From Lentisphaerota bacterium (GTDB taxonomy: Bacteria > Verrucomicrobiota > Kiritimatiellia > UBA8416 > VGWI01): a stretch of 64,000 nt of DNA. This document shows positions 10,296 through 36,243 of this stretch, in pieces; position 1 is the first letter of the stretch; each line of letters begins with the position of its first letter. A program made the position numbers and the translations under genes. The stretch is taken from contig VGWI01000003.1 of NCBI GenBank assembly GCA_016873655.1, positions 1,737-65,736 of the forward strand, written 5' to 3'. Below the pieces are notes generated by a model. The model saw nothing but the letters and a program-made list of their open reading frames with translations, was not told where the DNA came from and did no database searches.

Positions 10296-10760
10296 ATGAG
10301 GATGGCCTTGCGGCTGGCCGCCGACGCGGCGGAGGACGGCGAAGTGCCAACCGGCTGCGTGATAGTCCATGCGCCGCCTGGATCCGAACCGGCGCCACTC
10401 AGGATCATAGGCAGGGCGCACAACCAGACGGAACGGCTGAAGGACCCGACAGCCCATGCCGAGATGATCGCCATAACCCAGGCCGCTTCCGCGCTGGGAG
10501 ACTGGCGGTTGCTTGACACGGTTCTCTACGTCACCAAGGAGCCGTGCTCCATGTGCGCGGGAGCAATCATCCTGGCGCGTATCCCCGTCGTGGTGTTCGG
10601 CGCGCCCGACCCCGCACGCGGCGGCGCGGTATCGGTCTTCAACATACTGAATCACCCCGCGCTCAACCACAGATGCGAGGTGCTCGGGGGCGTGCTGGAA
10701 AACGAGTGCCGGAATGTCCTGCGCGACTTCTTCAAGTCACGGCGCGAAGACGGCAAATGA
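10296..10760 (+). CDS. tadA: tRNA-specific adenosine deaminase TadA
   Basis: CMP/dCMP deaminase zinc motifs HAEMIAI and PCSMCAGAI. Start at the ATG 10296 inside the longer listed ORF. Confidence 0.85.
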   Translation: MRMALRLAADAAEDGEVPTGCVIVHAPPGSEPAPLRIIGRAHNQTERLKDPTAHAEMIAITQAASALGDWRLLDTVLYVTKEPCSMCAGAIILARIPVVVFGAPDPARGGAVSVFNILNHPALNHRCEVLGGVLENECRNVLRDFFKSRREDGK

Positions 10761-10844
10761 ACCCCCGACCGGCCCCGCCGGCCCGGCACCTGACTCGAAA
10801 CGAAACGCGCACACCCCGATCTGGCGGCGGCATGGCCACTGTCG

Positions 10845-11723
10845 TCAGGCGCCGGCTCTGATGCCGAACCCTCTTGCCGGAGTCTCGGGCTTCCCCTTCA
10901 CGCCGGGCCTGAACCGCCAGGTTCCGCCCGAAGGCGCCGGCAACTTGCCGGCCCCGGCGGATGTGACATACATCCAGTCAAGCGCCGGCCCGGCAAAGCA
11001 AACGTTCGATATGCGCTCGACCGGCATCGCCGCCTTCCCCGCAATCCGCCCATCCCTGTCGAGCCGCAGAACGCAGCTCCCGCCCCAACAGGCCACCCAG
11101 ATGAACCCTTCGGCGTCCTGCGCACAGCCGTCCGGCACGCCGTTCGAAGGATCGCTTTCGTACCAGGGTCTTCCTTGGTCCAGCCTCCGCGCCGGGTCGT
11201 ATGCGTATGCCCTGATCGTCCTGCGCGGCGAATCGGTGTGCAGCAGCACCCGCCCGCCGTCGCAGAATGCCATTCCATTGGATATCCCGACCCCTTCGAG
11301 CACCAGACGCGCCGGCCGACCGGCGTCGCACAGGTACAGCACTCCGTCCTTCATCAGCGGGCTCATCGAGCCGACAAGCACGCGTCCGCCGGGATCCACG
11401 GCGGCATCGTTCAGCCGCCATCCGCGCGGGACCGGCAGGTCCGCCATGTGCACAAGCACGCCCCGCCGGACATCCAACCGGGCCAGCCCCCGCTCGTAGG
11501 CGGCAATCAGCCCGCCGTCTTCCGCCGCCAGGATCGCCGATACCTTGTTCGGCCCGCGCCATACAACACTGCAGTCGCCGGTCGCATGGTCACAGGCATG
11601 CACCGCGCCGCCGTCTATGTCGGCCCAGTACACCGTCCTGTCCGCCTCGCTCCAACACAGCGCCTCGCCCAGCAGGCACGGCGGCGCTTCGAGGAGTTCA
11701 AGGTCCATGGACGTTGTCTTCAT
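10845..11723 (-). CDS. SMP-30/gluconolactonase/LRE-family beta-propeller protein
   Basis: Repeated beta-propeller motifs (VYWADIDGG, LYLCDAG, GMAFCDGGRVL, WVACWGG). Start at the internal ATG 11723; the upstream 32 codons of the listed ORF lack support. Confidence 0.7.
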   Translation of the reverse strand: MKTTSMDLELLEAPPCLLGEALCWSEADRTVYWADIDGGAVHACDHATGDCSVVWRGPNKVSAILAAEDGGLIAAYERGLARLDVRRGVLVHMADLPVPRGWRLNDAAVDPGGRVLVGSMSPLMKDGVLYLCDAGRPARLVLEGVGISNGMAFCDGGRVLLHTDSPRRTIRAYAYDPARRLDQGRPWYESDPSNGVPDGCAQDAEGFIWVACWGGSCVLRLDRDGRIAGKAAMPVERISNVCFAGPALDWMYVTSAGAGKLPAPSGGTWRFRPGVKGKPETPARGFGIRAGA

Positions 11724-11868
11724 GCGCACACCTTCGTGGTTCCGCTCTGCCTTCGCGTTGAGAGTCCGCCCATATAGGCGGTCTCCGTCGCCAAAGTCCA
11801 GAGTATGCTTCGAGTTCACAGGCGTCCCGGCGGTGACCGCCGGCTCCTGTGACTCGCCTTTTCAAGCC

Positions 11869-12043
11869 ACTGTCATCCCATAGGGAACGTTTAATGACCA
11901 CAAAACCCCGTTATTGCTGATGTCTTGGAATAGTATGCGAGATTGTGATTCTTGGACGTTTTTTCGTAATCCTAATCGTAATCATCATCATAATCCTCTC
12001 TGTGACAGATGATTACGATTAGGATTCCTGTGGGACGCCAGTG
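11869..12043. mobile_element. MITE-like non-autonomous element, copy 1 (about 175 bp) flanked by a 10-bp direct repeat TTTTCAAGCC (11859-11868 and 12044-12053)
   Basis: About 85% identical to a second copy at 34993-35182. Imperfect about 17-bp terminal inverted repeats CACTGTCATCCCATAGG / CCTGTGGGACGCCAGTG. Internal perfect 19-bp hairpin AATCCTAATCGTAATCATC ... GATGATTACGATTAGGATT. Different flanking direct repeats at the two copies look like target-site duplications. Confidence 0.55.
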
Positions 12044-12083
12044 TTTTCAAGCCTCCCTTCGTGGCGGTGCGGACTCGCTGAGC

Positions 12084-12159
12084 GTCCCTTCGTGACGCTG
12101 CTACAGGCCAGATACGCGTGAAAACGGGTCTTCTGTAGCCGCCGCACGAAGGGCGACGC
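12084..12159. repeat. Inverted pair of REP-like 23-27-bp GC-rich units (GTCCCTTCGTGACGCTGCTACAG ... CTGTAGCCGCCGCACGAAGGGCGACGC) forming a long imperfect palindrome
   Basis: Both arms are members of the CTGTAGCCGTCGCACGAAGGGCGACG family that is tandemly repeated at 19545-19673. Confidence 0.45.
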
Positions 12160-12338
12160 TCCTCCATTCTGTATCCCGCTGCGCAAATCAAAAATCGGTC
12201 ATTCGGAACGCCAGCATCCGGTTTCACGATATCTCCGCCCAATCGCACACAACCGCCCTCCGCACGCAACCTTGTGCCGCATAGGTATTTACCAATACAG
12301 CGCGGCACATCTTCCCGTTTCTTGTTGGGCGTTCACGG

Positions 12339-12354
12339 TTGGCATGGAGTGTGC
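12339..12354 (+). promoter_or_regulatory. Candidate sigma-54 (-24/-12) promoter TGGCAT-N6-TGTGCG
   Basis: GG at 12340-12341 and GC at 12352-12353 with the canonical 10-nt spacing. Sits 45 nt upstream of a small ORF with a strong SD and about 340 nt upstream of the ACT/UPF0210 genes. An NtrC-type sigma-54 activator is encoded at 14678-16069. Confidence 0.3.
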
Positions 12355-12398
12355 GAATACATGCTGGGTTTGTATTTGAGCCTTGCCGGGAGGCAATT

Positions 12399-12590
12399 GA
12401 GATGCATGAAGAGAATAAGCTGCCGCGAGATGCCGGTTCCGGGGCCGGCCAACAGGGTCAATCACCCGCCGATGGCGCCCCTGCCCAACCGCGCGCCACG
12501 CCGCGCAGAGGGCGGCGTCCGCGCCGCCTGAACTGGGTATCCTTCGACGACCATCAGCCGCCCGCAACCAACTACCTGCGCAAAGGCTGA
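12399..12590 (+). CDS. Small basic hypothetical protein (63 aa, low complexity)
   Basis: ATG at 12399 is preceded by GGGAGG at 8-nt spacing. MHEENKLPRDAGSG...RRGRRPRRLNWVSFDDHQPP. No homology recognizable; may equally be a leader or UTR. Confidence 0.25.
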   Translation, partial: EMHEENKLPRDAGSGAGQQGQSPADGAPAQPRATPRRGRRPRRLNWVSFDDHQPPATNYLRKG

Positions 12591-14677: not shown

Positions 14678-16069
14678 TCAGCTTTCTCCGCCGTCCGTTT
14701 CCGCCGCGTACTCGCGGAGCCGTCTGTGCAGGGTGCGGCGGCTGATGCCGAGCTCCTTCGCGGCCCTGGAACGGTTGCCCCTGTTCCTGCGCAGCGCCGA
14801 TTCGATCGCCCGCCGCTCCACGTCCTCTATCGTCGCCGGCCCGGTTGCCGCGACGGGAACGGGTCCATCCGACATCTGCGCGGCTTCGCGTATGTTGCGG
14901 GGCAGGTCGCGCGCGGTGAGCCGCTGTCCGCGCGAAAGAACAAGCATCTTCTCGATCGTGTTGCGCAGTTCACGGACGTTGCCCGGCCACCTGTAGGCCA
15001 TGAAGGCGGCCATGACGTCGGGGGTGATTCCTTCCACGCTGCGCCCGTTCTTTTCGTTCAACACCTTGATGAAGTGATCGCAAAGCAGAGGTATGTCGTC
15101 CAGCCTCTCCCTCAGCGGCGGCAGCGCCACGCTCACAACGTCAAGCCGGAAAAACAGGTCTTCACGGAACTTCCCTTCTGCAACGAGCGCGTGCAGATCC
15201 TTGTTCGAGGCGGCAATCAGGCGGATATCCGTTTCGATTGAGGACTCGCCGCCCACCCTCTCGAAACGGCGCTCCTCGAGCACGCGAAGGAGCTTCACCT
15301 GCGTCCTGGCCTCGAGCTCGGATATCTCATCGAGAAACAGCGTGCCGCCGTCGGCGACCTCGAACCGCCCTTTCCTGCGCCCGGTCGCGCCGGTGAACGA
15401 ACCCGCCTCGTGGCCGAACAACTCACTCTCGAGAAGCGTCGGCGAAAGCGCCGCGCAGTGGACCGCGACAAACGGGCCTTTCGTTCTCGTGCTGAGCCCG
15501 TGCAGGGCGCGGGCGACGAGTTCCTTGCCCGTCCCGCTCTCGCCGGTAACCAGGACGGTGGCCTGGGTCGGCGCGGCTTGGCGTATCACGTCGTACACCT
15601 GCTGCATCCGCTCTGACGTGCCGATGATCCCTTCGAAACCGGGACGCGCATCGAGCTGCTCGCGCAGGGCCCTGTTCTCGCTCTCGATCTGCGAAGAACG
15701 CACGGCGCGCTTGAGCAGTATCTCAAGGTGGTCGAGATTGACCGGCTTGGTGAGGAAGTCGTAGGCGCCGCGCTTCATCGCCTCGACCGCGGTTTCGACG
15801 CTGCCATAGGCGGTGAGAAGGATGCCGACAAGGCCCGGCTGCCGCGCCAGCGCCCGCTGGAGAAGAGTCAACCCGTCCATACCCGGCATCCTGACGTCGG
15901 AGAGGAGTATGTCAACCTGCCGGGAATCCAGCGTGCGCAGGGCTATCTCCCCGCTTTCGGCGGTGATAACCTCGTAATCGAGTTCAAGCGCGCGCCGCAG
16001 CCCGTCCCTGGTGCTCTTGTCATCATCCACAATCAGCACGGCGTGCCTTGTCCTGTCCGAAACACTCAT
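14678..16069 (-). CDS. Sigma-54-dependent two-component response regulator (NtrC/AtoC family)
   Basis: Receiver domain (VLIVDDD...SDVRMPGMDG), AAA+ sigma-54 activator domain (GESGTGKELVARALH, GAFTGA-like ESELFGHEAGSFTGA) and a C-terminal Fis-type HTH. Start overlaps the kinase stop (ATGA). Confidence 0.9.
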   Translation of the reverse strand: MSVSDRTRHAVLIVDDDKSTRDGLRRALELDYEVITAESGEIALRTLDSRQVDILLSDVRMPGMDGLTLLQRALARQPGLVGILLTAYGSVETAVEAMKRGAYDFLTKPVNLDHLEILLKRAVRSSQIESENRALREQLDARPGFEGIIGTSERMQQVYDVIRQAAPTQATVLVTGESGTGKELVARALHGLSTRTKGPFVAVHCAALSPTLLESELFGHEAGSFTGATGRRKGRFEVADGGTLFLDEISELEARTQVKLLRVLEERRFERVGGESSIETDIRLIAASNKDLHALVAEGKFREDLFFRLDVVSVALPPLRERLDDIPLLCDHFIKVLNEKNGRSVEGITPDVMAAFMAYRWPGNVRELRNTIEKMLVLSRGQRLTARDLPRNIREAAQMSDGPVPVAATGPATIEDVERRAIESALRRNRGNRSRAAKELGISRRTLHRRLREYAAETDGGES

Positions 16070-19544: not shown

Positions 19545-19673
19545 CTGCAGCCGTCGCACGAAGGGCGACGTGTCCCCCTGTACCCGTTCGCACGCAGGGC
19601 GACGTGTCCCCCTGTAGCCGTCGCACGAAGGGCGACGTGTCTCCCTGTAGCCGTCGCACGAAGGGCGACGTGA
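19545..19673 (+). repeat. Tandem array of four 33-34-bp REP-like units (CTGTAGCCGTCGCACGAAGGGCGACGTGTCCCC), each carrying a 6-bp-stem hairpin CGTCGC-ACGAAGG-GCGACG
   Basis: Units at 19545-19577, 19578-19611, 19612-19644 and 19645-19673 abut directly with no spacers, about 20 nt after the fusA stop. Degenerate relatives lie at 19728-19764 and 12084-12159. Confidence 0.7.
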
Positions 19674-19880
19674 CAACCGGACACCGAGGGCTACCCCGAC
19701 CTATTCACGAAGCCGCCTCGTGGATAGGTCGCCCTGCGGGCTTCGACTCCGGCCCTGCGGGCCTGCGCTCAGGGTAGCCCTGAGCAAGGTGCGCAGCACC
19801 GCGTCGATGCCTGCTGCGGCGCACGTTGCGCCGCTGCAGGCGGTTGTGAATGAACGTGCAGCGTTCATGAATAATCCGGG

Positions 19881-24258: not shown

Positions 24259-25575
24259 CTACTTGTCCGCCGCGACAGGGACAGCCGCGCCGGGGCCGGA
24301 AGCCGGCTCCTCGGCAGGAATGGTCTTGTCGGTCGCGCCGCTGATGTACACTTCAACCCTGCGGTTCATAGGGTTGCCGCGAATCGGGTCGTTCTTCTCT
24401 TTCGGACGGCTAAACCCGTAACCCAGTGCATTCAGGCGCTCTGAAGCGATCCCGCGCGTGCCGGTGAGGTAGTCGGCAACAGAGCCGGCTCTCCGCCTGG
24501 AAAGGCGCGTGTTGTAGACTTCGCCGGACTTGCGCGTACGGTCGGCATGCCCCTCTATCCTGGCCCTGGCGTCCGGATTGCGCTGAAGCACCTTGGCCAC
24601 CACATCCAGCTTGGGATAGGACTGGACCGGGATCACGGCACTGTCGTACTCGAACGGAATGTAGAGCTCGATCAGCATCAGGTCGTCGGCCGGATTGCGC
24701 GGGTCGGTTTCGTCCTCAATCACTTCGTGCCCGTCTGCCACGCCGCCGCTGTCGGTATCCCTGATCTTCGGATCGGTATTGTGCTTCAGCACCTCGTCGC
24801 CGTCGCTGAGCCCGTCCCAATCGGTATCGGCGTTCAGCGGATTCGTCGTGTAGCGGTTCACCTCGTCGCCGTCGGTCAGCCCGTCGCGGTCAGTATCGGG
24901 ATCGAACGGGTCCGTCCCTATCTCGACTTCCCTTACGTCCGTCAGACCGTCGCCGTCGCTGTCGTTCGGGCTGCCGACAGCCACGAATTTCGGGGGTACG
25001 CGGGCGCCCCAGTTCCACACCAGGCCCGCCGAAAACATCGCGTTCGCGTTCGGGCTGTCGCCGAATCCGGCCAGAATTCCGCGGTAATCGGCCCTGACCG
25101 CCCACTCGTCGTTGAAGTGGTACATCACCCCGCCGCCGCCGCGCAGCAACAAGTTGTCGCTGCTGCCGTTCGCCGGCTCTTCACCGTAGTGCATGACGCC
25201 TATCCCGGCAGCCAGGTACGGATCGAGCCTCTCCCAGCGCGTGAAATGGAACAGGCCGTCAAGGGCAAGGGCGAGGATCTGCGTGTCGTTCCAGTCCGGG
25301 GCGGGCCGTCCGGACACCCTGTTGGAGTCGATCAGCGGGGCAAGCGAGGCCTCGGCCTCGAAAGTCCACCTGTCGTTGAAGTCGTAGCCCAGGCGGGCCG
25401 ACAGGAAAAGACCATCGGAGTATTCCTGGTCGCCCTCGAAATCAACCACGCCCAGCGCGGGCGAGAAGTACCAGGGCGCCTCATTCCCGAGTTCGATCGT
25501 AGCAGCCGCGGCGTTCAGCGAAAGCGCCGCCGCCATCCAGGCAACAGAGAGAATCGCGCTGATCTTACGAGTCAT
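24259..25575 (-). CDS. OmpA-family outer-membrane protein with thrombospondin type-3 (TSP3) calcium-binding repeats
   Basis: Signal peptide MTRKISAILSVAWMAAALSLNAAAA (ATG 25575, GGGAGGAG SD), an N-terminal beta-barrel, 4-5 DxDxDGxxDxxE repeats (DSDGDGLTD, DTDRDGLTDGDE, DTDWDGLSDGDE, DTDSGGVADGHE) and a C-terminal OmpA domain (NTRLSRRRAGSVADYL). Confidence 0.8.
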   Translation of the reverse strand: MTRKISAILSVAWMAAALSLNAAAATIELGNEAPWYFSPALGVVDFEGDQEYSDGLFLSARLGYDFNDRWTFEAEASLAPLIDSNRVSGRPAPDWNDTQILALALDGLFHFTRWERLDPYLAAGIGVMHYGEEPANGSSDNLLLRGGGGVMYHFNDEWAVRADYRGILAGFGDSPNANAMFSAGLVWNWGARVPPKFVAVGSPNDSDGDGLTDVREVEIGTDPFDPDTDRDGLTDGDEVNRYTTNPLNADTDWDGLSDGDEVLKHNTDPKIRDTDSGGVADGHEVIEDETDPRNPADDLMLIELYIPFEYDSAVIPVQSYPKLDVVAKVLQRNPDARARIEGHADRTRKSGEVYNTRLSRRRAGSVADYLTGTRGIASERLNALGYGFSRPKEKNDPIRGNPMNRRVEVYISGATDKTIPAEEPASGPGAAVPVAADK

Positions 25576-34866: not shown

Positions 34867-34992
34867 CAGACCTTCACCGTGCGGTCGGCCTCAACGATCA
34901 TGCCGCACCTTCCAGGGCTCGTCGAGATCCAGCAGGGCCGCGCCGACGCTGTACCCCTTGACCGTGCAGTTCGGCATGATGCCGTGAAACGG

Positions 34993-35182
34993 CATCACTG
35001 TCATCCCGTAGGCAACGTTTCACGATCACAAAACCCCGCGTTTGCTGATGTTTTAGAATAGTCTGCGGGATTGTGATTCTTGAACTGTCCTTCGTAATCC
35101 TGATCGTAATCGTAATCATAGTCCTCTCTTTGGCAGATGATTACGATTACGATCAGGATTACGATTACGCGATGCCTGTGGG
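34993..35182. mobile_element. MITE-like non-autonomous element, copy 2 (about 190 bp) flanked by a 14-bp direct repeat ATGCCGTGAAACGG (34979-34992 and 35183-35196)
   Basis: Same termini (CACTGTCATCCCGTAGG...CCTGTGGG) as copy 1. Internal stem extended to a perfect 26 bp (GTAATCCTGATCGTAATCGTAATCAT / ATGATTACGATTACGATCAGGATTAC) with compensatory changes relative to copy 1. Lies about 200 bp upstream of wzm. Confidence 0.6.
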
Positions 35183-35379
35183 ATGCCGTGAAACGGAATC
35201 AGCCATTGCCCTGCAAGCAAAAAGGGGGACATGCCCCCCGGCGATTCGGGCGCGGCCCGGAATTGGGCTTTCAGACGGAATGGGAAAATGTTTCCATCGC
35301 TCACGCGCTCTTTCCGGCAGGGACCCGGCAAAGACTCAACGGCGCCTTGTTTCGACAATCTTACCGCGGATGTTTCACT

Positions 35380-36243
35380 ATGTGCGAACACAGCCCGCTC
35401 GCCGGAAAAACCGGATGCCCGGAAACAGCGCAGACCGTCTTCGATTCGGCGCACCGCCAGCCGCCGGCAATCGAAGAGCTTGTCCAGCTATGGCGCTACC
35501 GCGACCTCGTGGCGCAGCTCGTCATCCGCAACATCAAGGCCCGCTACAAGCGTTCCGTGCTTGGAGTCGTTTGGACGATGCTGAATCCGCTGCTGATGAT
35601 GGCGGTGCTCTCGCTCGTGCTGCACGGGCTCTTCGGGCTCCGCGTGCCGAACTACTCCGCGTACCTGCTTGCCGGCCTTCTGCTCTGGCAGTTCTTCGCC
35701 CAGGCAACCCTGGCCAGCACAAGCGAGATCGTGTGGGGCGCAAGCCTCGTCAAGCGCATCTACGTGCCGCGGACGGCATTCGCCGTAGCCGCCGTCGGGA
35801 ACGGACTGGTCAACCTGGCTCTCTCGCTTGTCCCGCTTGCGCTGATAATGGCCGTCCTCGGAATCCCGGTCGGCAGAGCGGCGCTGACGATCCCGGTTTC
35901 TGTCCTGCTGACGGCAATGTTCACGCTCGGCGTGGCTCTGTTTGTTTCGTCGGTGGCAGTCTATTTCGCCGACTTCATGGAGATATACCAGGTTGCCCTG
36001 ACAGCGTGGATGTACCTGACACCCGTGATCTATCCGATAGACATCGTCCCGGAACGTTACCGATGGCTTTTCAAGTTGAACCCCATGTGCCACCTCGTCG
36101 ACATCTTCCGCGCGCCGATACACATGAACGCCCTGCCGGCCATGGAGTCCCTCTGCGCCGCTGCCGGCGCCTCCGTGCTGGTCCTGCTGCTTGGCTGGCT
36201 GTTCTTCACACGGAATTCCGATGAAATCGCCTACCGCGCCTGA
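35380..36243 (+). CDS. wzm: ABC-2 type polysaccharide export permease (Wzm/KpsM/TagG family)
   Basis: Six predicted TM helices; conserved N-terminal QLWRYRDLVAQLVIRNIKARYKRSVLGVVW typical of ABC-2 glycan exporters. The listed ORFs start within the MITE and translate the repeat (MITITIRITI...); the real start is ATG 35380. Confidence 0.8.
   Translation: MCEHSPLAGKTGCPETAQTVFDSAHRQPPAIEELVQLWRYRDLVAQLVIRNIKARYKRSVLGVVWTMLNPLLMMAVLSLVLHGLFGLRVPNYSAYLLAGLLLWQFFAQATLASTSEIVWGASLVKRIYVPRTAFAVAAVGNGLVNLALSLVPLALIMAVLGIPVGRAALTIPVSVLLTAMFTLGVALFVSSVAVYFADFMEIYQVALTAWMYLTPVIYPIDIVPERYRWLFKLNPMCHLVDIFRAPIHMNALPAMESLCAAAGASVLVLLLGWLFFTRNSDEIAYRA

What the first reader, a model, noticed from the sequence alone, without database searches (positions are those of the whole stretch)
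11859..12053. MITE-like element copy 1 with 10-bp target-site duplication TTTTCAAGCC
A 175-bp element with imperfect about 17-bp terminal inverted repeats (CACTGTCATCCCATAGG / CACTGGCGTCCCACAGG as reverse complement) and a perfect 19-bp internal stem. It is bracketed by an identical 10-bp direct repeat. It lies about 145 bp upstream of the SMP-30 lactonase gene and next to a REP-like palindrome, so it could affect promoter structure of flanking genes.
Basis: seen in the sequence. Interest (0 to 1): 0.6.

Follow-up and report, generated by a model that had tools for sequence, protein, structure and literature searches.

The report
Small mobile DNA element, recently inserted
This is a real 176-bp non-coding transposable element (a MITE) that recently inserted upstream of a lactonase gene in an uncultured Lentisphaerota bacterium; it is a well-known kind of element, so the result is solid but ordinary.

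Summary
Window 11868-12043 is a 176-bp, 42% GC element in a 64.5% GC genome. Its 17-nt terminal inverted repeats match at 14 of 17 positions, and it has a perfect 19-bp internal stem. The flanking duplication is 9 bp (TTTTCAAGC), not 10: the tenth base is the first base of the repeat, CACTG.

The key evidence is an empty site. Two metagenome contigs from other samples (L037, L038) carry the same lactonase flank at 99.5% identity. They run straight through one copy of TTTTCAAGC with no element.

A second copy lies at 34996-35190 (85% identical, duplication matching 8 of 9). At least 14 more copies of the same type sit in unrelated contexts in 12 metagenome contigs and one MAG contig. Among 12 aligned full-length copies, five have perfect 9-bp duplications. 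Other elements share the same ends but have different cores, including one in a Verrucomicrobiota MAG.

There is no Rfam match, no promoter or terminator signal in copy 1, and no conserved reading frame.

I did not find the transposase that moves the element, so its parent IS family is unknown. Verdict: a new member of a known kind, of low to moderate interest.

The parts
11859..11867 (.). Left copy of the 9-bp target-site duplication, TTTTCAAGC
   Evidence: Identical to 12044-12052. Empty-site contigs L037 and L038 carry a single copy.
11868..12043 (+). MITE copy 1, complete 176-bp non-autonomous element (type A)
   Evidence: Absent precisely from L037 and L038. 85% identical to copy 2. Full-length nhmmer match to the family profile, E = 2.9e-52. 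42% GC.
11868..11884 (+). Left terminal inverted repeat, CACTGTCATCCCATAGG. Family conservation continues to about 11889.
   Evidence: Most columns of CACTGTCATCCC.TAGG.AACG are invariant or nearly invariant across 12 copies.
11968..12026 (.). Internal hairpin: 19-bp perfect arms at 11968-11986 and 12008-12026 with a 21-nt loop. The arms are built from hexamer repeats, TAATCN on the left and NGATTA on the right.
   Evidence: The longest perfect stem ranges from 9 to 28 bp among the 12 aligned copies, and the hairpin is missing from the short forms in L015 and L017.
12027..12043 (-). Right terminal inverted repeat (CACTGGCGTCCCACAGG on the minus strand)
   Evidence: 3 mismatches to the left repeat. 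The right-end family consensus is GGATTTCTGTGGGATGCTA.TG.
12044..12052 (.). Right copy of the 9-bp target-site duplication, TTTTCAAGC
34996..35190 (+). MITE copy 2 (195 bp, 28-bp perfect hairpin stem). Flanked by AAACGGCAT (34987-34995) and AAACGGAAT (35191-35199), matching at 8 of 9.
   Evidence: Every contig of this population that spans the site carries the element.

Best explanation
[quoted passage not shown] It is a non-coding, internally deleted relative of an insertion sequence that keeps only the transposase-recognition ends and some subterminal sequence.

Proposed mechanism:
1. A transposase encoded elsewhere binds the two terminal inverted repeats (CACTGTCATCCC.TAGG...).
2. It cuts the target DNA with a 9-bp stagger and joins the element ends.
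3. Repair of the two 9-nt gaps produces the flanking direct repeat TTTTCAAGC.

Copy 1 landed in the divergent intergenic region between the SMP-30/gluconolactonase gene and a small-ORF/ACT/DUF711 gene cluster, right at the edge of a REP-like palindrome pair. The insertion is recent: it is present in some natural populations of this Lentisphaerota lineage and absent from others that are about 99% identical in the flanks.

Shown here: the ends, the 9-bp duplication, the lack of coding capacity, multiple copies in unrelated contexts, and the empty site. Inferred: the type of transposase (DDE), action in trans, and any effect on the neighbouring genes.
For: 1. Empty site. L037 (JGI sample 3300010293) and L038 (ENA ERZ27245471) align to window 10471-11868 at 99.5% and continue directly at 12044, with one TTTTCAAGC. 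Contigs L032 and L033 from other samples carry the element, and L031 and L034-L036 end inside it.

2. Duplications elsewhere. Perfect 9-bp duplications of different sequence flank other copies: TATTCATCC and TTGTAAAAT (L014), GTCTGGATT (L018/L019), TAATCGGGC (L027), AACGAGGGT (L017, a 110-bp form) and AATCCGGCC (L016, type B). Copy 2 and the L007 element match at 8 of 9.

3. Conserved ends. The terminal repeats are conserved across all copies. Three sites matching the left repeat occur in the window against 0.06 expected.

4. Many contexts. At least 14 further type-A copies or truncated forms lie in 12 metagenome contigs and one MAG contig. Host GC ranges from 51% to 64%, while the two window copies are 42-46% GC.

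5. Not a known RNA, no signals. No Rfam family matches. There is no promoter-like or terminator-like site in copy 1.

6. Not coding. The only recurrent small ORF is frameshifted in two copies, and it is absent from the short form L017, which has its own perfect duplication.

7. Assembly behaviour. Short-read contigs break inside the element, as expected for a dispersed repeat.
Against: - No autonomous partner was found. No transposase gene bounded by these repeats turned up in about 170 kb of MITE-bearing loci, in the DNA retrieved beyond both window ends (about 4 kb and 2 kb), in PLSDB plasmids, or in IMG/VR.
- Six of the 12 aligned full-length copies (L004, L011, L020, L023b, L025, L028) have no recognisable duplication. 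This could reflect recombination between copies or chimeric metagenome assembly. L027 and L028 share a left flank but differ on the right.
- The empty site alone cannot distinguish 'never inserted' from precise loss.
- Only two copies were seen in the roughly 70 kb of this genome I could examine.
Confidence: 0.93

Rival explanations
1. A structured non-coding RNA gene or cis-regulatory RNA. The hairpin and paired ends would be RNA structure, and the flanking repeat would be coincidence.
For: Both strands fold far better than shuffles (z = -5.7 and -6.5). The hairpin arms stay complementary in different copies even though their sequences differ.
Against: There is no Rfam match at gathering threshold, and the E-value hits are microRNA and viral models far below their cut-offs. 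The element is precisely absent from near-identical orthologous loci. Copies lie in unrelated contexts, each with its own 9-bp duplication. The hairpin is dispensable, because short forms without it also carry duplications (L017). Stem length ranges from 9 to 28 bp. No promoter or terminator was found in copy 1.
Confidence: 0.02
2. A REP/BIME-type palindromic element spread by a RAYT (Y1, IS200/IS605-like) transposase, like the REP-like repeats next to it.
For: It directly abuts a REP-like inverted pair (12088-12158), and the genome has a separate REP-like family.
Against: By established knowledge, REP elements are about 20-40 nt imperfect palindromes without terminal inverted repeats or target duplications. 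This element is 176 bp with 17-22-nt terminal repeats and 9-bp duplications. The adjacent REP-like units are present unchanged in the empty-site contigs, so they are a separate feature.
Confidence: 0.01
3. A MITE that also carries a payload. The candidate is a 20-35-codon ORF starting at the GTG at window 11945. It would encode a hydrophobic (V/I/L)n stretch followed by an acidic DYD tail, resembling a type I toxin or small membrane peptide. Alternatively the element could supply an outward-reading partial promoter.
For: The frame from the GTG is open in 9 of 11 copies, with similar products such as MILGRFFVILIVIIIIILSVTDDYD*. The left end contains ATGACA three bases from its tip, and in copy 2 this forms a 9-of-12 promoter-like site with flanking DNA.
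Against: The hydrophobic-then-acidic pattern follows automatically from a palindrome of TAATCN hexamers: GTA-ATC reads V-I, and its complement GAT-TAC reads D-Y. The stop position simply tracks which hexamer variant occurs. The frame is broken in L018 and L023a, and the ORF is missing from short forms. I saw no clear Shine-Dalgarno sequence upstream by eye. No promoter-like site was found for copy 1.
Confidence: 0.04

Closest known systems
MITEAba12 of Acinetobacter and other Moraxellaceae (Adams & Brown 2019, PMC6382973)
   Same: Small, AT-rich and non-coding, with imperfect ~16-17-bp terminal inverted repeats and 9-bp target-site duplications. It is found in several species and was caught as a recent insertion.
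   Different: MITEAba12 is 113 bp, has an identified parent (ISAba12) with matching ends, and its movement was observed experimentally. Here there is no sequence similarity, the parent is unknown, and the element carries a variable hexamer-repeat palindrome. Mobility is inferred from an insertion polymorphism in metagenomes.
BrickBuilt MITE of Porphyromonas gingivalis (Klein et al. 2015, PMC4596501)
   Same: A bacterial MITE with an internal tandem-repeat block of variable copy number between 'leader' and 'tail' parts. It is always intergenic.
   Different: BrickBuilt carries a 23-nt minisatellite in direct orientation, and promoter activity was shown. Here the repeats are 6-nt units arranged as a palindrome, and no promoter activity is shown or predicted.
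Correia elements (CREE/NEMIS) of Neisseria
   Same: From established knowledge: abundant 100-150-bp intergenic elements with terminal inverted repeats that fold into long hairpins when transcribed. They can affect the expression of neighbouring genes.
   Different: Correia elements duplicate a TA dinucleotide rather than 9 bp, and they have unrelated sequence. Their regulatory effects are demonstrated, whereas none is shown here.
IS4-family insertion sequences as a possible parent (De Palmenaer et al. 2008, PMC2266710)
   Same: IS4-family members have short, often imperfect terminal repeats and make target duplications of about 10 bp. From memory, some subgroups start with CA.
   Different: No transposase was recovered, so the assignment is only a lead. 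Other families that make 8-10-bp duplications remain possible, such as the IS903 group of IS5, ISAs1, IS1 and IS256 (from memory).

Membership tests
Bacterial MITE (non-autonomous IS derivative) | Small size (tens to a few hundred bp) with no transposase gene | tested here: met
   176 bp. The only recurrent ORF is 20-35 codons long and is not conserved in frame.
Bacterial MITE (non-autonomous IS derivative) | Terminal inverted repeats | tested here: met
   14 of 17 positions complementary in copy 1. The ends are conserved across 12 copies.
Bacterial MITE (non-autonomous IS derivative) | Target-site duplication of fixed length but variable sequence | tested here: met
   9 bp in copy 1. Six further insertions have different perfect 9-mers, and copy 2 and L007 match at 8 of 9. 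Six of the 12 aligned copies have no recognisable duplication.
Bacterial MITE (non-autonomous IS derivative) | Multiple dispersed copies | tested here: met
   2 copies in the window, plus at least 14 type-A copies or truncated forms in 13 other contigs with unrelated flanks.
Bacterial MITE (non-autonomous IS derivative) | Evidence of mobility (filled versus empty site) | tested here: met
   L037 and L038 are empty. L032 and L033 are filled. The flanks are 99.5% identical.
Bacterial MITE (non-autonomous IS derivative) | A full-length IS with matching ends that supplies the transposase | tested here: inconclusive
   None was found in the loci, window flanks, plasmids or viral contigs.
IS4-family derivative | Ends that match a specific IS4-family element, and a duplication of about 9-12 bp | not tested
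   The duplication length is compatible. No IS4-family element with these ends was available for comparison.
REP/BIME | Short imperfect palindrome of about 20-40 nt, with no terminal repeats and no target duplication | tested here: not met
   The element is 176 bp with terminal repeats and a 9-bp duplication.
Structured ncRNA gene (any Rfam family) | Match to a covariance model, and presence at orthologous sites | tested here: not met
   No match at gathering score. The element is absent from the orthologous site in L037 and L038.

The most novel reading that the evidence does not exclude
The CACTGTCATCCC-type ends define a set of modular MITEs shared by Lentisphaerota and Verrucomicrobiota. 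I saw type A, type B, and the L007 type, each with a different core. They may be moved by a transposase that has not been described, possibly from a new IS group. The rapidly varying hexamer-repeat palindrome could be a functional module, for example a transposase or host-factor binding array, an RNA-processing hairpin, or a small-peptide ORF, rather than neutral filler.
Probability: 0.08. Interest if true: 0.5.

Novelty: new member of a known kind. Interest (0 to 1): 0.25.

Why it matters
Practical consequences:

- **Assembly.** The element breaks short-read assemblies of this lineage. Several contigs end inside it.
- **Annotation.** It misleads gene callers. The NCBI model for the ABC permease next to copy 2 starts inside the element.
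- **Strain marker.** It provides a presence/absence marker that distinguishes near-identical populations of an uncultured freshwater Lentisphaerota lineage.

Biologically, it shows that transposition has been active recently in this lineage, and that related elements with the same ends occur in another PVC phylum. It does not open a new question. Bacterial MITEs with 9-bp duplications are well documented.

Tried and rejected
- **Rfam.** A gathering-threshold search of the whole window and an E-value search of 11700-12450 found only a tRNA-Ser elsewhere and sub-threshold microRNA and viral hits.
- **Genome collection scan.** Scanning with both ends (CACTGTCATCCC N140-170 CCTGTGGGA) gave 10 hits. 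Eight are chance. L004 is a true type-A copy, and L007 is a related element with a different core.
- **Search for the parent IS, all negative.**
  - Inverted pairs of end-like sites in all loci gave only weak pairs about 600 bp (L015) and about 1050 bp (L020) apart, with no transposase ORF between them.
  - All-against-all blastn of the loci found only MITEs and two ordinary shared genes.
  - ORFs in L007 include no transposase.
  - Gene tables for the DNA beyond both window ends list no transposase family, and that DNA holds no further copies.
  - blastn against PLSDB plasmids gave only chance 23-33-nt hits.
  - Two IMG/VR scans gave none, then three chance hits.
- **IS3-like ORF in L012.** An IS3-type OrfA N-terminus sits at the end of L012. 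I rejected it as the partner because IS3-family elements make 3-4-bp duplications (established knowledge).
- **Copy 2 empty site.** Every contig that spans the site is filled.
- **Promoter and terminator scan.** Nothing in copy 1. Copy 2 has one weak hybrid promoter-like site at its left end.
- **Small-peptide ORF.** Rejected as a by-product of the hexamer palindrome.
- **Resemblance to the IS10 outside end.** Recalled from memory and judged too weak to use.
- **Literature.** I found no described MITE in Lentisphaerae.

Full report
**1. The observation**

Window 11859-12053 reads TTTTCAAGC | CACTGTCATCCCATAGG ... CCTGTGGGACGCCAGTG | TTTTCAAGC, followed by C.

- The two ends are inverted repeats that match at 14 of 17 positions.
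- A search for the left end allowing up to 3 mismatches found three sites in 64 kb, against 0.06 expected. They are the two ends of this element and the left end of a second copy.
- The internal stem is perfect for 19 bp: 11968-11986 pairs with 12008-12026, with a 21-nt loop.
- The element is 42% GC, against 64.5% for the window as a whole.
- It folds much better than shuffled sequence on either strand (z = -5.7 as DNA, -6.5 as RNA). The ends pair with each other, a second imperfect inverted repeat lies in the left half, and the long hairpin lies in the right half.

**2. The second copy and the wider family**

A second copy lies at 34996-35190 and is 85% identical over 158 nt.

A scan of one genome per species with both ends as the pattern returned ten stretches, eight of them chance.
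- L004 is a true copy, from a MAG labelled only 'bacterium ELA715'.
- L007 comes from a Verrucomicrobiota MAG. It has the same ends, a different core, and an 8-of-9 duplication, AGC[T/C]AACGT.

A metagenome scan with the left end (CACTGTCATCCCNTAGGNAACG) returned 20 contigs.
- Twelve carry the same type of element ('type A'), two of them twice.
- Eight carry a 303-327-bp element ('type B'). It has the same 22-nt end on both sides, a different core with a 28-bp inverted repeat, and an inverted copy of the type-A left part.
- Short type-A forms of about 110 bp lack the hairpin altogether (L015, L017).
- In L026 a type-B element abuts a truncated type-A hairpin, and in L029 hairpin-arm sequence lies on both sides of the type-B pair. 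In L024 a type-A left end abuts similar hexamer repeats.

**3. The duplication is 9 bp**

Twelve full-length type-A copies were aligned with their flanks. All begin with CACTG. The flanks give:
- TTTTCAAGC (copy 1)
- AAACGGCAT / AAACGGAAT (copy 2, 8 of 9)
- TATTCATCC and TTGTAAAAT (L014)
- GTCTGGATT (L018/L019)
- TAATCGGGC (L027)

Outside that alignment, the short form in L017 has AACGAGGGT and the type-B element in L016 has AATCCGGCC.

Six of the 12 aligned copies have no recognisable duplication. L027 and L028 share a left flank but differ on the right, which suggests exchange between copies or chimeric assembly.

**4. The empty site**

The adjacent lactonase has only one close cluster in the protein collection. 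The next relative is 58% identical. One member of the cluster is MBM4147668.1, from a Lentisphaerota MAG on an 87,109-bp contig, which identifies the source lineage.

I fetched the contigs that encode the cluster members.

| Contig(s) | Source | State of the site |
|---|---|---|
| L032, L033 | JGI 3300020221, 3300020603 | Element present, as in the window |
| L031, L034-L036 | JGI 3300020084; Logan SRR7979709, SRR7989281, SRR7008372 | Contig ends inside the element |
| L037 | JGI 3300010293 | Empty |
| L038 | ENA ERZ27245471 | Empty |

L037 and L038 align to window 10471-11868 at 99.5% and then continue at 12044. They carry one TTTTCAAGC followed by CTCCCTTCGTGG. This is the classical filled-versus-empty comparison. 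It excludes a fixed RNA gene and shows an insertion, or a precise loss, within a very recent time frame.

For copy 2, every contig that spans the site is filled.

**5. What the element does not contain**

- No Rfam family matches.
- There is no sigma-70-like promoter and no intrinsic terminator in copy 1. Copy 2 has one weak hybrid site that uses ATGACA near the left tip.
- There is no convincing gene. A reading frame from a GTG is open in 9 of 11 copies and would give products such as MILGRFFVILIVIIIIILSVTDDYD*.
  - This pattern is what a palindrome of TAATCN hexamers must encode in that frame: GTA-ATC reads V-I, and GAT-TAC reads D-Y.
  - The stop position follows whichever hexamer variant occurs.
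  - Two copies are frameshifted, and the short forms lack the region.
- The hairpin arms are hexamer microsatellites of variable number. The longest perfect stem ranges from 9 to 28 bp among copies.

**6. Mechanism**

The anatomy and the polymorphism fit a non-autonomous DNA transposon that is moved in trans. A transposase recognises the inverted ends and makes a 9-bp staggered cut in the target. Gap repair then creates the duplication.

- Shown here: the ends, the duplication, the multiple contexts and the empty site.
- Inferred: a DDE transposase, and any regulatory effect of the insertion.

The insertion lies 143 bp upstream of the lactonase start at 11724. It sits in a divergent intergenic region of about 680 bp, immediately beside a REP-like inverted pair that is unchanged in the empty alleles. 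The eight perfect duplications show no evident shared target sequence on inspection.

**7. The parent element**

I could not find it.
- No transposase ORF lies next to end-like sites in the loci.
- The DNA retrieved beyond both window ends has no transposase family in its gene tables and no further copies.
- PLSDB plasmids and IMG/VR gave only chance matches.

A 9-bp duplication with ends beginning CA is compatible with the IS4 family, whose members make duplications of about 10 bp (PMC2266710). Several other families are also compatible, so this remains an untested lead.

**8. Comparison and novelty**

- The closest described analogue in architecture is MITEAba12: 113 bp, 16-bp imperfect ends, 9-bp duplication, parent ISAba12 (PMC6382973).
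- The internal variable repeat block recalls the BrickBuilt MITE of P. gingivalis (PMC4596501).
- I found no description of a MITE in Lentisphaerae.

This is therefore a new family, or a set of families sharing ends, of a well-known kind. I rate interest as low to moderate. It is a clean, well-supported case that is useful for annotation and strain tracking, but it would not surprise a specialist.

Noticed in passing
window 12088-12158 and 19545-19687: There is a separate REP-like repeat family with unit CTGTAGCCGTCGCACGAAGGGCGACG (GTCGC/GCGAC stem). One inverted pair sits right next to MITE copy 1. A tandem array of 4-5 units spaced 33-34 nt apart lies at 19.5 kb. Four matches with up to 3 mismatches were found against 0 expected. 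The pair is present unchanged in the empty-site contigs.
   Followed up: partly
window about 12212-12340 versus L037 and L038: The flanks are about 99% identical, but a block of about 125 bp upstream of the small ORF at 12403 is replaced by unrelated sequence of similar length in the empty-site contigs. Identity drops to 63% in that stretch. By eye it is not an inversion. The cause is unknown.
   Followed up: partly
window 35137-36243 and 34891-35004: Gene calls run into MITE copy 2. The NCBI model of the ABC-2 permease (MBM4147690.1, 368 aa) starts at an ATG inside the hairpin at 35137, whereas JGI aa from 35380. A 37-aa minus-strand ORF called by JGI starts at the ATG inside the left inverted repeat. 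Both look like annotation artefacts.
   Followed up: partly
L013, L016, L021, L022, L026, L029, L030, L012 (type B); L007 912-1101: Other non-autonomous elements share the same ends. Type B is 303-327 bp, with a 28-bp internal inverted repeat and an inverted type-A left part. The 190-bp element in a Verrucomicrobiota MAG has a different hexamer-repeat core (GGAATC units). In L026 and L029, type-A hairpin-arm sequence directly flanks type-B elements.
   Followed up: partly
L012 14609-14735: A type-B left end is followed by TTTCTATTT. Next comes a 108-bp segment that begins with the right-end sequence CACTGGCGTCCCACAGG, and then TTTCTATTT occurs again. This may be another short derivative. An IS3-type OrfA N-terminus (MMTILRYSEAFKRQVVEE...) starts at 14851, at the contig end.
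   Followed up: no
L027 1438-1607 versus L028 33-232: The two contigs share the same left flank and left part of the element. They differ in hairpin repeat number and have unrelated right flanks. Only L027 has the 9-bp duplication. This could be recombination between copies or chimeric assembly.
   Followed up: no
window 24721-24916: Three direct repeats of about 58 nt are spaced 69 nt apart, at 62-78% identity. They probably encode a repeated protein motif. I did not examine them.
   Followed up: no
window 34981-34997: The target of copy 2 lies within a small palindrome, ATGCCGT-GAA-ACGGCAT. Copy 1 lies at the edge of a REP-like palindrome. Together these hint at insertion next to small hairpins, but two cases are too few to test the idea.
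   Followed up: no
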